A DNA stretch of 64,000 nucleotides from Phapecoctavirus DIJ07P2: sequence record OZ035771.1; one strand, written 5' to 3'. Every line of letters starts with the position of its first letter. The first letter of the stretch is position 1. The notes below the pieces were generated by a model that did no database searches, was not told where the DNA came from, and was given only the letters and a program-made list of their open reading frames with translations. Shown here one piece after another: positions 32,181 to 38,222 of this stretch. The position numbers and the translations under genes were made by a program.

Positions 32181-32771
32181 TCAAATTATTAACGAAACCG
32201 CATGACTAAATTTTGGTTCAGATATAACCTCTGCTACAGTCACATATGTATCGTGCAGCCAAAAAGATTCTACTCTACAAACACAAATACCGTTGATAAT
32301 GAAATCTACACAGGCTTTATTATTTTCGCACACTTGTTGTCTATAAACAACCCCTAAAGAGTCATAAAGTGATCTCACTGTTGCTACCATTTCATCTGTT
32401 TCATCTTCGTGCGAAACAAAGAAAACGAATACAGACAAGTTGTTAGCGAAAGTACTGCTATTCTCTACTTCAACCGACTTACAAGGTAAAAAGGAGTAAT
32501 ATTTACCGTTAGGTATCAATTTCGCCTCAACCTGGTTAAGTATGCTTTGAGATGGTTTTGTTACATAAAAAAGATTTTCTGTTGGGTTTTCAACATTACT
32601 CCTTACTATGCAACGAGTGGGGTTCGAAGGATCAAAAACATGATCGAAATCGACACACACAGGTAAGTTAACAACTTTAAACTTTTTGCTAAGAATGCTT
32701 ACTGCGGTAAAAATCAAACCAGCGTTTATTTTGCCAGTGAAAGTTGAACGCATAACTACTCCTCGGATCAT
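32181..32771 (-). CDS. hypothetical protein (196 aa)
   Basis: track ORF. Confidence 0.45.
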   Translation of the reverse strand: MIRGVVMRSTFTGKINAGLIFTAVSILSKKFKVVNLPVCVDFDHVFDPSNPTRCIVRSNVENPTENLFYVTKPSQSILNQVEAKLIPNGKYYSFLPCKSVEVENSSTFANNLSVFVFFVSHEDETDEMVATVRSLYDSLGVVYRQQVCENNKACVDFIINGICVCRVESFWLHDTYVTVAEVISEPKFSHAVSLII

Positions 32772-34387: not shown

Positions 34388-34432
34388 TATTAATCTCCTA
34401 TGTTTAAGAAATGCCCCCGAAGGGGCAGTTTG

Positions 34433-35125
34433 TTAAATAGCGGTTCCTTCGAAATCCGCCACATTTACGAGATTAATATTTTCAGATTTAGAAGTCAAGT
34501 TGTTTTCTGCAACAGATTTTTCTTCAGTATCCGCCTCGTTACCTGCCACGTTACGAGGTTCTTCTTCACCGTAGGGATTACCGAATTTCAAAAGATTGAT
34601 TAATTCTTCTTTGGAGAAGTTTTCTAAATCATCGTCTGTTAATTCAATAATCTCGTCTTGTTCTTCAATAAATGTTTCACCACCAGAAAAAGCATCTCGC
34701 TTTTTAGCTACTTCCATAGCTTGTTCTGGTGTTGCCCCTGCATCAAGAGCAGCTAAAGCAAAGTCTGACCCACTTCCTACTGCATAATATTCTTCATCAA
34801 TCGGATATGCACGTGTTGGATTGTTACCTTCGTGCAGGAAAATACGTCCGTCTGGATGAACAACAAGCGCAATAAACTCTTCATCTTCTTTATCTGGATC
34901 AGAATGAATCATCAAACCAGGGACAGCATCACGTGCTGCTTCGCACTGTAGGTTTTGTTCAAACCATTGAAAGAAAGAAAGCACGGAGGTCAGACGACCA
35001 GCACCACCTACAAGGTAATCTCCAATTTTTCGGACCTTTTTGAAATTAATAGAATCTACACGTCCGCCAAAAGTTACCTTACCATCACTCAAAATCTTAT
35101 TCTTGGTTGCAATAATTGTCGTCAC
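34433..35125 (-). CDS. HslV-like (proteasome beta-type) peptidase with long acidic C-terminal tail
   Basis: N-terminus MTTIIATKN (Thr right after Met), GGAG and GSGSDFALAA motifs; ~70-aa Glu/Asp-rich extension. Confidence 0.65.
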   Translation of the reverse strand: MTTIIATKNKILSDGKVTFGGRVDSINFKKVRKIGDYLVGGAGRLTSVLSFFQWFEQNLQCEAARDAVPGLMIHSDPDKEDEEFIALVVHPDGRIFLHEGNNPTRAYPIDEEYYAVGSGSDFALAALDAGATPEQAMEVAKKRDAFSGGETFIEEQDEIIELTDDDLENFSKEELINLLKFGNPYGEEEPRNVAGNEADTEEKSVAENNLTSKSENINLVNVADFEGTAI

Positions 35126-35628
35126 TATTCTTCCTCCTCTGTTAATGTTTTAAGAACCGCTTTCCCGCCATTCACATATTTGCAGATGTATTCTATCGCA
35201 CGTAGTGTCTCTTTGTCAACAAAAATTTGATCAGACGTTGCGAGCGGGTTATTAAGAAGATCACTGCAATCACGAACAAGCAGTGCTTTCTTATTAAACA
35301 AATTACTTAAGAACAGTAACTTCGCCTCTTCTTCTGTTATGTGCAGAAGGCTAGGATCGGAGCCAGCTATTCCTATTATACAATCAAACAAGCTTTCTTT
35401 ACTATCAGAAAGTTCTTGAAAATGGTTTAAAAGCCAATCTTCTCCTAGACACCAACATTTAAACATTTCCAGTTTATCTCGGAGGGTCATATTCTCTAAA
35501 GTAAGAGCAATCTCTTTTTCAATATGGTTTACACAAATTTGACGAAATTCGTTAGGTTTTACGAGTCCCGTTTGATAGCACTCATCTATACCACTTCTTC
35601 CGATAGCTATTGTTGCTACACCCATCAA
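35125..35628 (-). CDS. hypothetical protein (167 aa)
   Basis: track ORF. Confidence 0.45.
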   Translation of the reverse strand: MMGVATIAIGRSGIDECYQTGLVKPNEFRQICVNHIEKEIALTLENMTLRDKLEMFKCWCLGEDWLLNHFQELSDSKESLFDCIIGIAGSDPSLLHITEEEAKLLFLSNLFNKKALLVRDCSDLLNNPLATSDQIFVDKETLRAIEYICKYVNGGKAVLKTLTEEEE

Positions 35629-35660: not shown

Positions 35661-36470
35661 TTAAATAAACACTTCAGTAATCAGTTTAGACAAACGTCCA
35701 CGTTTATTATCGTCCGTTGTCAGTTCAACATATCCAATAAAATCTACAATTGGCTCACGAACACCTTCTTCATTTTCTGGATATAAAAGTTCCAAAATTT
35801 GATGCAGACCATTGCTACGTTTTTTAATTGCATATGTCTGGCGAACATCGCCTAATACAATAACATGCGTATTAATACCTGCACGTTCAATAAGAAGTTT
35901 AAGTGTTTCTGTTGACATAAGTTGTGCTTCGTCAATAATGACAATTGTATTATCCAGGGTAGCTCCCAACAAATAGTTAGGAATATTCAATTCGATCTTA
36001 CCTGATCCAATATCATTTTCCAATTTATTGGCTGTCATGAATTGCTGGAAAATACGTTTTGTAGATTCGTAGTGTGCTGCTAGTTTATCTGTTTTATCCC
36101 CAGACAAGAAACCAATCTGGTCATCTCCGACTTCAGTAGGGTTCTTGATAAAAAGTAGTTTACGGAAGTCTCCTGAACGAAGCATCTGCAAAGCTTTCCA
36201 TAAAGCAACAGAGGTTTTACCAGTCCCTGCCGGAGCATTTACAACAGTCAGATCATTCCAAATCATGCTTTGAACAATCTTATTTTGGTCCCCTTCAGGC
36301 ATAAATTCATCTAAACGGTAATCGTCATTACCTACCGCTTTTGCTGCATAACGGCTTTCAATCTTTGCTGAATTAGCCAGTTTCTGCCGTTGTGTTTTAG
36401 CTGCGGTTTTATTTCCCATAGTAGCACTCCTTTTAGAAGGGGCCGAAGCCCCTTTATTAGTTGTAAGCAT
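35661..36470 (-). CDS. phoH: PhoH-like ATPase
   Basis: Walker A NAPAGTGKTS, Walker B IIDEAQ. Confidence 0.8.
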   Translation of the reverse strand: MLTTNKGASAPSKRSATMGNKTAAKTQRQKLANSAKIESRYAAKAVGNDDYRLDEFMPEGDQNKIVQSMIWNDLTVVNAPAGTGKTSVALWKALQMLRSGDFRKLLFIKNPTEVGDDQIGFLSGDKTDKLAAHYESTKRIFQQFMTANKLENDIGSGKIELNIPNYLLGATLDNTIVIIDEAQLMSTETLKLLIERAGINTHVIVLGDVRQTYAIKKRSNGLHQILELLYPENEEGVREPIVDFIGYVELTTDDNKRGRLSKLITEVFI

Positions 36471-37119: not shown

Positions 37120-37380
37120 TTACTCCGCAATTTGAGCCATGAGATCACGCAGTTCGGTAAAACCGCCTACGTATGTTACCTCCCCGTTCACTTCAGACAG
37201 AATTTGTGGAAATGTGCGTGGAGGAACTCCGGTAAGATCAACAACTGTTTTAGTCATTGATTCTAAATCGTAGTCTTGGTCAAGACTTAAATATTCAAAC
37301 TGTTTATTGCGCATGGTTAATAGTTGTTTTGACATTTCGCAAAATTGACAGTTAGGTTTACCAAAAATTACAAATTCCAT
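37120..37380 (-). CDS. glutaredoxin (NrdH/NrdC-like)
   Basis: CQFC active site in an 86-aa thioredoxin-fold-sized protein next to RNR genes. Confidence 0.7.
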   Translation of the reverse strand: MEFVIFGKPNCQFCEMSKQLLTMRNKQFEYLSLDQDYDLESMTKTVVDLTGVPPRTFPQILSEVNGEVTYVGGFTELRDLMAQIAE

Positions 37381-38222
37381 TACCTCTCCTTATTAAGTAA
37401 TACTGCTAAAGACCGTTCAATACCTTTATTTAAATCTGATTTTGTAAGATAGTGACTGGTTACTAATTGTGACTTCACCGGACGTGCTGCTGGAGCATTA
37501 TAGGTTGAAGCTGATACCGCCGATATCTTAACAGGTTCTGGCATCTGTGTCAAGATCTTTTCCGCAAACTCCGCCCAAGAAATAAGATGGCTTCCTGCAA
37601 AATGGTAAGTCTTTACAGATCTTGACCAACCTGTTTTTAATACTTCAAAAATAGCTTCTGCTAAATCTGGGGCATATGTTGGACAAGAGAACTGATCAGC
37701 AACAATAATAAAATCACGTTGTCCATCATTATAGCGAGACAACATGGTTTTTAGAAAGTTATTTCCAAATTCACTATATACAGACGCTGTTCGAATAATA
37801 TATGCGTTTGGGTTAACTCCTCGCACCATTTTTTCACCGAGTTCTTTCGTATACCCATAATTGTTTATCGGGTTAGGTGTAGTGTCTTCAAAAATAGGAT
37901 GAGAATAATTAAAAATATAGTCTGTAGAAATATGCACAAAATCAATTTTAAGTTTGCTGCACACTGCCGCAATATTTGCAGGGCCATAGGCATTAACAGC
38001 CAAAGCAGTAGCAAAATCCTGTTCTGCTTTATCTACAGCCGTATAAGCAGCGCAATTAATAACACCATCTACATAATCTTCAACAATAGCGTTTCGCACA
38101 GCTTCAAAATTTGTAATATCTACACGTTCTTTAGGATAAATTAAAGACACATTTGAAGGAGCCACTTTACGTAAAGCTTGTCCCAGTTGTCCATTACCAC
38201 CCAATACCAGATATGTTAGCAT
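37380..38222 (-). CDS. rmlD: dTDP-4-dehydrorhamnose reductase-like
   Basis: N-terminal LVLGGNGQLG Rossmann motif, 280 aa, translationally coupled to the RmlC-like gene. Confidence 0.7.
   Translation of the reverse strand: MLTYLVLGGNGQLGQALRKVAPSNVSLIYPKERVDITNFEAVRNAIVEDYVDGVINCAAYTAVDKAEQDFATALAVNAYGPANIAAVCSKLKIDFVHISTDYIFNYSHPIFEDTTPNPINNYGYTKELGEKMVRGVNPNAYIIRTASVYSEFGNNFLKTMLSRYNDGQRDFIIVADQFSCPTYAPDLAEAIFEVLKTGWSRSVKTYHFAGSHLISWAEFAEKILTQMPEPVKISAVSASTYNAPAARPVKSQLVTSHYLTKSDLNKGIERSLAVLLNKER

What the first reader, a model, noticed from the sequence alone, without database searches (positions are those of the whole stretch)
34433..35628. HslV-like N-terminal-threonine peptidase with a ~70-aa acidic tail and no HslU partner
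The protein begins MTTIIATKN and has GGAG and GSGSDFALAA segments typical of HslV/proteasome beta subunits, but ends in a long Glu/Asp-rich extension absent from cellular HslV. No AAA+ HslU-like gene is nearby; the neighbour (35125-35628, 167 aa) is unrecognised. A phage peptidase of this type could hijack host HslU or act as a decoy for it.
Basis: partly seen in the sequence, partly recalled or inferred. Interest (0 to 1): 0.6.

Follow-up and report, generated by a model that had tools for sequence, protein, structure and literature searches.

The report
Orphan phage HslV-like peptidase cassette
This E. coli phage encodes a distant relative of the bacterial HslV (proteasome-like) peptidase that keeps the catalytic residues, has lost most features needed to dock the HslU ATPase, and sits right after a conserved small gene of unknown function; databases already list the gene family, but nobody has tested what it does.

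Summary
Window 34433-35125 (-) encodes a 230-aa N-terminal-threonine (Ntn) peptidase homologue, and no HslU, ClpX or Lon-type unfoldase is found in the genome. The window is a phAPEC8-like E. coli myovirus (Phapecoctavirus). RefSeq already calls the gene "peptidase HslV family" (PHROG 1040), and a 2020 genome paper noted phage HslV without HslU.

New here:
- It is not an HslV orthologue: 31-32 bits against cut-offs of 137 and 158.
- Thr1, Asp17, Lys33 and the Gly-Ser-Gly loop are invariant, but most HslU-docking determinants are changed or deleted.
- The tail has two parts: a conserved, confidently modelled two-helix module (about residues 156-190) and a fast-evolving, mildly acidic end of variable length.
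- The 166-aa neighbour is a narrow orphan helical family. In 19 of 19 loci that carry it, it lies directly upstream (gap -1 to +12 nt), only with tailed peptidases, and always after PhoH.

Best reading: a peptidase that works without HslU, co-expressed with a dedicated partner protein. Hijacking or decoying host HslU is disfavoured. Substrates are unknown. It is a variant of a known kind, of moderate interest.

The parts
34433..35125 (-). HslV-like Ntn threonine peptidase gene (230 aa, GTG start, TAA stop at 34433-34435)
34661..35125 (-). Catalytic core, residues 1-155 (Thr nucleophile T2; D14; K30; G117-S118-G119). The HslV-type fold is predicted, but without the second apical helix (residues 68-84 are modelled as coil).
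   Evidence: AF2 pLDDT mostly above 90; invariant columns; alignment to E. coli HslV
34556..34660 (-). Conserved acidic linker plus two-helix module, residues 156-190 (helices 164-169 and 172-181; T163, E165, S171, K172, E173, L175, I176, L179 conserved)
   Evidence: pLDDT 84-89 for residues 151-180, falling to 68 for 181-190; residue-class conservation of 0.86-0.93 among 44 tailed homologues
34433..34555 (-). Distal tail, residues 191-230, plus the stop codon: disordered, fast-evolving, variable in length, mildly acidic
   Evidence: pLDDT below 50 for 192-216; identity 5-20% where the core is about 80% identical; length 7-187 aa; net negative charge in 39 of 40
35133..35138 (-). Shine-Dalgarno AGGAGG, 7 nt upstream of the GTG start, lying inside the 3' end of the partner gene
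35125..35625 (-). Partner gene (166 aa from ATG 35625; PHROG 14834). It is an orphan, mostly helical protein with motifs VKPNEFR, VRDCSD and VDKETLRA. Its TAG stop overlaps the peptidase GTG by 1 nt.
35661..36419 (-). PhoH-like P-loop ATPase (253 aa from the ATG at 36419, which has an AAGGAG upstream). It is the first gene of the conserved PhoH-partner-peptidase cassette.
34412..34427 (-). Terminator-like hairpin (TGCCCC-TTCG-GGGGCA followed by TTTCTT), 5 nt after the peptidase stop codon
36436..36455 (-). GC-rich hairpin with a UUCG loop between the lysozyme stop and the PhoH start. No T-run follows it on the coding strand, so it may be an RNA-stability or processing element.

Best explanation
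The gene encodes a phage-lineage member of the HslV/proteasome-beta superfamily that most likely acts as a threonine peptidase without HslU.

Shown:
- The nucleophile Thr is residue 2 and there is no room for a propeptide.
- The catalytic Asp, Lys and Gly-Ser-Gly set is invariant across the family.
- The predicted fold is HslV-like.
- No HslU, ClpX or Lon-type unfoldase is encoded in the genome, or within 5 kb of 80 related viral loci.
- Most residues that receive the HslU C-terminus are changed or deleted.
- The extension has a conserved, confidently modelled two-helix module and a fast-evolving distal tail.
- A small orphan helical protein is encoded directly upstream in every locus that has it, only next to tailed peptidases, and always after PhoH.

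Inferred:
- Host methionine aminopeptidase removes Met1, so the enzyme is active as soon as it folds and assembles.
- It forms an HslV-like ring chamber.
- The two-helix module packs on the core or on a neighbouring subunit, on the face where cellular HslV has its second apical helix and binds HslU. This would resemble the C-terminal extensions of some 20S beta subunits.
- The upstream protein is made in step with the peptidase and acts as its regulator, cap or adaptor.
- The variable distal tail recruits or excludes lineage-specific targets.
- The cassette is expressed with the early or middle nucleotide-metabolism genes and degrades peptides, unfolded proteins or particular host factors.
For: Family identity: PHROG 1040 E=1.6e-63; Pfam PF00227 above its cut-off; PDB HslV E=4.9e-9; Foldseek top hits are HslV, TM 0.65-0.70.

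Catalytic residues are invariant in 50 of 50 sequences. The N-terminus is [M/V/L]TT in 75 of 80 viral loci. The start has a strong SD, and no upstream in-frame start exists.

No unfoldase: HslU gives no hit at E<=10, ClpX touches only the P-loop region of gp114, and Lon gives nothing significant. The ClpP peptidase, searched as well, also finds nothing. There are 0 AAA+ hits in 80 loci. HslU-like genes in phages are confined to other groups.

Docking determinants are lost (with PMC6429459), and the model shows coil where the second apical helix should be. The protein scores 31-32 bits against HslV equivalog cut-offs of 137 and 158 bits.

Tail anatomy.

Partner: hhalign E=2.6e-26 and 4.9e-31 to the ORFs in the same slot of divergent contigs. 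In 19 of 19 loci it is adjacent, on the same strand, with a gap of -1 to +12 nt. All 19 peptidases are tailed, and none of the other 61 loci has it.

Tail-less forms of 137-146 aa exist in Caulobacter and Rhizobium phages, so the tail is an accessory rather than part of the minimal enzyme.

Precedent: BPH is a bacterial proteasome homologue described as a stand-alone double-ring complex (PMC5777263).
Against: No biochemical evidence exists for any phage member.

Cellular HslV alone is a very weak peptidase that needs allosteric activation by HslU (PMC6429459). Activity without an activator is therefore an assumption.

The oligomeric state, where the tail module packs, and partner binding could not be tested. 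Only monomer models were available and their coordinates were not readable.

F57 and R35 of the HslU-facing surface are retained, so some form of HslU contact is not excluded.

Adjacency of the partner and PhoH could simply reflect conserved gene order within one broad phage lineage. The two-helix module also occurs in Aeromonas phages that lack the partner, so the module is not simply a docking site for the partner.
Confidence: 0.55

Rival explanations
1. Hijack of host HslU: the phage peptidase docks onto E. coli HslU hexamers and uses them as its unfoldase, redirecting HslU-selected substrates.
For: The host encodes HslU. The phage encodes no unfoldase of its own. HslV is the closest cellular relative. 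F57 and R35 are retained. In the closest clade the tail reads [DE]D[LI]xxF, which resembles the HslU C-terminal EDLSRFIL.
Against: Pocket residues are changed or deleted: F54 to L, Q114 to L/I plus a 12-aa insertion, the A79/K80 region is not helical, L88/R89 are deleted, and K28 is not Lys. The family is spread over phages of very different hosts, with sequences that do not track host HslV.
Confidence: 0.12
2. Decoy or poison of the host HslUV system: the protein sequesters HslU, or co-assembles with host HslV, to block degradation of phage proteins. Catalysis would be irrelevant.
For: Phages are known to inhibit host proteases (own knowledge: T4 PinA against Lon, T7 gp4.5 against Lon, lambda CIII against FtsH). 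The phage has no HslU gene of its own.
Against: The same loss of HslU-docking features applies. The strict invariance of the whole catalytic set (Thr1, Thr2, Asp17, Lys33, Gly-Ser-Gly) in 50 of 50 sequences argues that catalysis is under selection. A decoy would not need that.
Confidence: 0.06
3. PhoH, the partner and the peptidase form one machine. The PhoH P-loop ATPase, bridged by the 166-aa partner, would take HslU's place as the energy-dependent component.
For: PhoH-partner-peptidase order on one strand in 19 of 19 partner-bearing loci. PhoH lies 267-2677 nt upstream in the four tailed loci that lack the partner, but near only 2 of the other 57 loci. Hairpins flank the three genes in the window.
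Against: All these phages share a longer collinear block (NrdAB, glutaredoxin, lysozyme, PhoH and so on), so the linkage may simply be inherited gene order. PhoH is common in phages that lack this peptidase, and it is not an AAA+ unfoldase. Pfam groups it with helicase-like P-loop domains. The short Caulobacter and Rhizobium forms have no PhoH nearby.
Confidence: 0.08
4. It is the capsid-maturation (prohead) protease or another virion-associated protease.
For: No prohead protease is annotated in the near-identical nepoznato genome. The ORF in the usual slot between portal and major head protein (gp001) belongs to an unknown-function PHROG.
Against: The gene lies in the nucleotide-metabolism and replication cluster on the opposite arm from the head genes, and this position is conserved in many lineages. 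No prohead protease I know of has an Ntn fold (own knowledge).
Confidence: 0.05
5. It is a non-proteolytic Ntn enzyme, such as an amidohydrolase or a transpeptidase/ligase like archaeal Connectase, acting as a monomer or small oligomer.
For: The core is unusually small (137-155 aa) and lacks the second apical helix. It is very distant from HslV. From my own knowledge, the proteasome superfamily includes non-protease members.
Against: The full proteasome-type catalytic set is kept, and the nearest structural neighbours are all compartmentalising peptidases.
Confidence: 0.1

Closest known systems
HslV (ClpQ), the peptidase subunit of bacterial HslUV
   Same: N-terminal Thr exposed by Met removal with no propeptide; Asp17, Lys33 and Gly-Ser-Gly conserved; the same strand order and helices H1, H3 and H4; the best sequence and structure matches.
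   Different: 27% identity. Scores 31-32 bits against equivalog cut-offs of 137 and 158. No adjacent hslU gene and none in the genome. Second apical helix missing. A 12-aa insertion before the GSG loop. Most HslU-pocket residues changed. About 69 extra C-terminal residues.
BPH, and Anbu by analogy: bacterial proteasome homologues without a dedicated ATPase
   Same: Orphan members of the same superfamily with an intact Thr active site and unknown physiological role. BPH is among the top structural hits (PMC5777263, PMC6376114, PMC3235984).
   Different: Sequence similarity to BPH is negligible (E=1) and TM is lower (0.52-0.55). No Anbu chain appeared at E<=10. Those proteins are cellular, have no comparable C-terminal module, and have different gene neighbours.
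C-terminal extensions of eukaryotic 20S beta subunits (for example beta2 and beta7)
   Same: An extra C-terminal segment on a proteasome-type fold, used in the 20S particle to clasp neighbouring subunits or rings. This comes from my own knowledge and is the best analogy for the conserved two-helix module.
   Different: No sequence relationship. Packing of the phage module could not be examined here.
Other phage 'peptidase HslV family' genes (PHROG 1040)
   Same: The same family: 233 GenBank phage records and at least 345 IMG/VR contigs. Lack of HslU was already noted for Salmonella jumbo phage pSal-SNUABM-04 (PMC7823757).
   Different: Most members are 137-183 aa and lack the tail, the partner and PhoH linkage. 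The window's clade has the two-helix module, a variable tail and the coupled partner gene.

Membership tests
Proteasome/HslV Ntn-hydrolase superfamily (Pfam PF00227) | Score above the Pfam gathering threshold | tested here: met
   25.6 bits against 22.4, although only residues 11-61 align
Proteasome/HslV Ntn-hydrolase superfamily (Pfam PF00227) | N-terminal Thr nucleophile plus Asp17, Lys33 and the Gly-Ser-Gly loop | tested here: met
   T2, D14, K30 and G117-S118-G119 are invariant in 50 of 50 sequences
Proteasome/HslV Ntn-hydrolase superfamily (Pfam PF00227) | Alpha-beta-beta-alpha Ntn fold | tested here: met
   AF2 core pLDDT above 90. Foldseek probability 1.00 to HslV, BPH and 20S beta, TM 0.65-0.70 to HslV. 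One of the four canonical helices is absent in the model.
HslV proper (NCBIfam NF003964 and TIGR03692 equivalogs) | Score above the curated equivalog cut-off | tested here: not met
   32.2 and 31.4 bits against cut-offs of 137 and 157.75. E. coli HslV scores 302 and 288.
HslV proper | Encoded together with the HslU AAA+ partner | tested here: not met
   No HslU hit in the genome at E<=10. None in 80 related loci.
HslV proper | Pocket that accepts the HslU C-terminus (F54, F57, Q114, A79/K80; PMC6429459) | tested here: not met
   Only F57 is retained. F54 becomes L, Q114 becomes L/I plus an insertion, and the A79/K80 region is non-helical and divergent. This rests on a sequence alignment at 27% identity.
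HslV proper | Dodecamer made of two hexameric rings | not testable with these tools
PHROG 1040 'peptidase HslV family' | Full-length profile match | tested here: met
   E=1.6e-63, residues 1-229
BPH / Anbu | Significant sequence similarity to solved members | tested here: not met
   BPH 5ovs E=1. No Anbu chain was listed at E<=10.
AAA+ unfoldase (tested for the neighbour and for genome gp114) | The neighbour has a P-loop/AAA+ fold, or gp114 co-occurs with the peptidase | tested here: not met

The most novel reading that the evidence does not exclude
The PhoH-partner-peptidase cassette is a self-contained phage proteolytic machine of a new type. An HslV-derived chamber would be capped or gated by the orphan 166-aa protein, possibly powered by the PhoH ATPase in place of HslU. 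Fast-evolving C-terminal tails would select host targets. That would give phage PhoH, a very common phage gene of unknown role, a first concrete function.
Probability: 0.08. Interest if true: 0.8.

Novelty: new variant of a known kind. Interest (0 to 1): 0.4.

Why it matters
Orphan proteasome relatives such as Anbu and BPH are a standing puzzle: they have intact active sites, no ATPase partner and no known substrates. This phage family is a sizeable, uncharacterised addition, with 233 sequenced phages and at least 345 viral contigs.

The clade in this window offers handles for experiments. It infects E. coli K-12, it has a defined partner gene, and its tail is modular. If the enzyme is active without HslU, it would show how a proteasome-type chamber can be activated without an unfoldase. 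It would also reveal a proteolytic step in infection by large myoviruses that are being considered for therapy. If it is merely a weak peptide-recycling enzyme, the finding is ordinary.

Tried and rejected

2. Tail as an in-cis mimic of the HslU C-terminus (DDDLENF against EDLSRFIL). Largely rejected. At the aligned position the pattern occurs only in the closest clade (11 of the 15 nearest sequences). A shuffled tail gives it 1.6% of the time, post hoc. It keeps only two of the five essential HslU residues, and it is internal rather than at a free C-terminus (PMC6429459, PMC4106860).

3. gp114 AAA ATPase as a hidden unfoldase partner. Rejected on phyletic grounds.

4. Tail against PDB sequences: no hits.

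5. Pfam domains in the long-tailed homologues: none.

6. PADLOC defence models: none.

7. Exhaustive profile search with the neighbour family: only 14 representatives among 1.84 billion proteins, with no link to any known family.

8. The 'repeat_region' that RefSeq marks inside the gene: no repeat found in the window.

9. Promoter scan: not above chance.

Full report
**What the window is.** The 3.1 kb around the finding is 99.6% identical to Escherichia phage nepoznato and matches about 70 other phAPEC8-like genomes (Stephanstirmvirinae, Phapecoctavirus, about 150 kb). RefSeq already labels the gene 'peptidase HslV family'. Other depositors call it 'ATP-dependent protease subunit HslV', 'putative 20S proteasome' or 'hypothetical protein'.

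**Checking the observation.** ORF 34433..35125 on the minus strand encodes 230 aa beginning MTTIIATKN.
- The GTG start is the first possible start after an in-frame stop, so there is no propeptide.
- AGGAGG lies 7 nt upstream, and the GTG shares one base with the TAG stop of the upstream ORF (TAGTG).
- A GC hairpin followed by a T-run (34427..34412) begins 5 nt after the TAA stop.
- Homology is solid: PHROG 1040 E=1.6e-63 over the full length; Pfam Proteasome 25.6 bits against a 22.4 cut-off; T. maritima HslV E=4.9e-9, followed by twelve further HslV sequences from other species and constructs.
- The AF2 model (mean pLDDT 82.9) is closest to solved HslV structures, with TM 0.65-0.70 normalised to the target. 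BPH and 20S beta subunits come next.

**Catalytic machinery.** I aligned the protein with E. coli HslV, taken from MG1655, and with family members. Thr1, Thr2, Asp17, Lys33 and Gly123-Ser124-Gly125 correspond to T2, T3, D14, K30 and G117-S118-G119. All are invariant in 50 of 50 sequences. The N-terminus is [M/V/L]TT in 75 of 80 viral loci. Thr at position 2 permits removal of Met by methionine aminopeptidase (established knowledge).

**Not an HslV orthologue, and poorly equipped to dock HslU.**
- Against NCBI's two HslV equivalog models the protein scores 32.2 and 31.4 bits. The cut-offs are 137 and 157.75, and E. coli HslV scores 302 and 288.
- PMC6429459 lists Phe54, Phe57, Gln114 and Ala79/Lys80 as the HslV residues that accommodate the HslU C-terminus.
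- In the phage family F54 is Leu, and Q114 is Leu/Ile followed by a 12-residue insertion. R86 is Asp and L88/R89 fall in a deletion. Only F57 and R35 persist.
- The position of E. coli Lys28 is Gln, Ser, Thr or Asp in the phage family. From memory, and not verified here, Lys28 pairs with the HslU C-terminal carboxylate.
- The model has every HslV secondary-structure element in order except the second apical helix. Residues 68-84 are coil.
- These mappings rest on a 27%-identity alignment and a predicted model, so they are strong hints rather than proof.

**No unfoldase.**
- tblastn of E. coli HslU, ClpX and Lon, plus the ClpP peptidase, was run against the window and the remainder of the nepoznato genome.
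- HslU finds nothing, even at E<=10. ClpP and Lon find nothing significant. ClpX finds only the P-loop region of gp114 (E=2.6e-4).
- gp114 is a classical-clade AAA protein (PF00004, 29.9 bits) that ends in GSVF.
- Its family (PHROG 2376) is spread over Enterococcus, Bacillus, Staphylococcus and Lactococcus phages that lack the peptidase. It is not among the top organism groups for the Vibrio, Caulobacter or Rhizobium phages that have it. It is therefore not a dedicated partner.
- HslU-like genes in phages occur in Erwinia and Salmonella jumbo phages and in contaminant records. No Stephanstirmvirinae record is among the 40 best rows listed.
- In 80 related IMG/VR loci there is no HslU, ClpX, Lon or gp114 hit within 5 kb.

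**The tail has two parts.**
- E. coli HslV ends opposite about residue 161.
- Residues 151-180 are modelled with pLDDT 84-89 and 181-190 with 68. Two short helices lie at 164-169 and 172-181. Residues 192-216 fall below pLDDT 50.
- Among 44 tailed homologues, T163, E165, S171, K172, E173, L175, I176 and L179 are conserved at 0.86-0.93 by residue class. Conservation collapses after about residue 190.
- The distal part keeps only 5-20% identity where the core is about 80% identical. Its length ranges from 7 to 187 residues, it is net negative in 39 of 40 sequences, and it is only mildly enriched in D/E (0.20 against 0.16 in the core).
- Long tails contain no Pfam domain.
- Most of the acidity sits in the linker and module.
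- Tail-less forms of 137-146 aa exist in Caulobacter and Rhizobium phages. The tail is therefore an accessory, not part of the minimal enzyme.

**A tempting idea that failed.** E. coli HslU ends in ...DEDLSRFIL. That octapeptide alone activates HslV, with Phe441 as the key residue (PMC4106860). The phage tail reads DDDLENF, or EDLRNF in close relatives. Four points count against mimicry:
- At the aligned position the pattern is confined to the nearest clade (11 of the 15 closest sequences).
- It appears in 1.6% of shuffled tails, in a post-hoc test.
- It keeps only two of the five C-terminal residues shown to be essential (PMC6429459).
- It is internal rather than at a free C-terminus.

I treat it as a probable coincidence.

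**The neighbour.**
- The 166-aa ORF, which probably starts at ATG 35625, has no Pfam, NCBIfam or PADLOC match. It belongs to PHROG 14834, unknown function.
- It has sharply conserved motifs: VKPNEFR, VRDCSD and VDKETLRA.
- Its model is confident (pLDDT 91.4) and mostly helical, with two short strands.
- An exhaustive profile search of 1.84 billion cluster representatives finds only 14.
- It is neither an ATPase nor a hidden HslV paralogue.

**Gene neighbourhood.**
- Divergent metagenomic phages keep the order NrdA-NrdB-glutaredoxin-lysozyme-PhoH-[150-170 aa]-peptidase.
- The ORFs in that slot are true homologues of the neighbour (hhalign E=2.6e-26 and 4.9e-31).
- In the census of 80 loci, 19 carry the partner. 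In all 19 it lies on the same strand and ends -1 to +12 nt from the peptidase start. In all 19 PhoH comes directly before it, and all 19 peptidases are tailed (202-291 aa).
- Four tailed loci lack the partner but still have PhoH 267-2677 nt upstream. Two of these are Aeromonas-phage contigs. The Aeromonas phages instead carry a second, divergent HslV-like paralogue.
- The remaining 57 loci encode mostly shorter forms (137-183 aa). None has the partner, and PhoH is nearby in only 2.
- The partner is therefore a clade-specific companion of tailed peptidases.
- The two-helix module also occurs without the partner, so it is not merely a docking site for it.

**Most likely mechanism.**
- Shown: the protein is a phage-lineage Ntn threonine peptidase homologue with an intact active site. 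It has no propeptide, no cognate unfoldase and a remodelled HslU-facing surface. It is encoded at the end of a PhoH-partner-peptidase unit that ends in a terminator-like hairpin.
- Inferred: it assembles into a ring and works without HslU. The two-helix module packs on the core or on a neighbouring subunit, as some 20S beta C-terminal extensions do. The partner, made in step with it, regulates or caps it. The variable distal tail tunes target choice.
- Substrates are unknown.
- The main weakness is that cellular HslV is nearly inactive without HslU (PMC6429459). Autonomy is therefore assumed, and no experiment exists for any phage member.

**Rivals.**
- Hijack of host HslU (0.12) and decoy of the host system (0.06) are disfavoured by the lost docking features. 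The decoy idea is further weakened by selection on the catalytic residues.
- A PhoH-powered machine (0.08) rests only on synteny within one collinear lineage.
- A capsid-maturation role (0.05) cannot be dismissed by pointing to another protease, because none is annotated. The gene's conserved position among nucleotide-metabolism genes argues against it.
- A non-proteolytic Ntn enzyme (0.10) remains possible, given the minimal core.

**Novelty.** The gene family and its label are already in PHROGs and RefSeq. The absence of HslU next to phage HslV genes was noted in PMC7823757. What I did not find described is the loss of docking features, the two-part tail and the conserved coupled partner. 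This is a variant of a known kind. It is of moderate interest, mainly as a tractable entry point to orphan proteasome homologues.

Noticed in passing
L002:3432-4885 (Aeromonas phage 2L372D, NC_048769): Two adjacent PHROG 1040 genes. The upstream one (183 aa) begins MTCIIAL and has GCG in place of the GSG loop, so Cys replaces Thr2 and Ser124 (E. coli HslV numbering). The downstream one (294 aa) is tailed. This could be a hetero-oligomeric pair, or an active subunit with a modified one.
   Followed up: partly
L011:6596-7735 (nepoznato gp114, outside the window): A 379-aa classical-clade AAA ATPase (PF00004; weak similarity to Cdc48/VCP/Rix7) of unknown role. Its family is shared with Herelleviridae-type phages and is sometimes annotated as clamp loader or replication protein.
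   Followed up: partly
L014:195-1310 and L012:30269-31270 (nepoznato head module, outside the window): No prohead protease is annotated in this phage group. The 371-aa ORF between the portal and major head genes belongs to PHROG 2970 (unknown function) and may be the scaffold or protease.
   Followed up: partly
window 35661-36470: The mechanical ORF list gives PhoH 269 aa starting at 36470. The start supported by a ribosome-binding site, which is also the RefSeq start, is ATG 36419 (253 aa), just after a GC hairpin with a UUCG loop at 36436-36455. The terminator after the peptidase gene has a UUCG loop as well.
   Followed up: partly
window 35190-35219 (-): An 11-of-12 sigma-70-like match (TTGACA, 18 nt spacer, TAGAAT) lies inside the 3' end of the partner gene, about 65 nt upstream of the peptidase start. 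It could allow separate transcription of the peptidase, but promoter-like matches in this region are not above chance.
   Followed up: no
GenBank records MG065650, MG065645, MG065639 ('Campylobacter phage' B15, A145, A150) and OP562383 ('Acinetobacter phage' ABPW7): Some records labelled as Campylobacter or Acinetobacter phages carry these genes at 99% protein identity to the E. coli phages; others are close to Justusliebigvirus. Their host labels look doubtful and may reflect contamination or mislabelling.
   Followed up: no
window 32181-32771 (-) and 37380-38222 (-): RefSeq labels the 196-aa ORF (about 190 aa in RefSeq) 'histidyl tRNA synthetase', which seems unlikely for its size. Nearby are dTDP-4-dehydrorhamnose reductase and epimerase-like genes next to a glutaredoxin gene, which is an unusual sugar-nucleotide pathway for a phage.
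   Followed up: no
P0061, P0062, P0063 (metagenomic homologues; L006:6001-7140): Some relatives carry 130-230-residue tails with paired Cys motifs (for example C..H...CKFCGK) and a Trp-rich C-terminal region that matches no Pfam domain. These may be unrecognised binding domains fused to the peptidase.
   Followed up: partly
L001:12456-12499 (nepoznato 35410-35453; about window 34627-34670): RefSeq marks a 44-bp 'repeat_region' inside the peptidase gene. No second copy was found in the window.
   Followed up: yes
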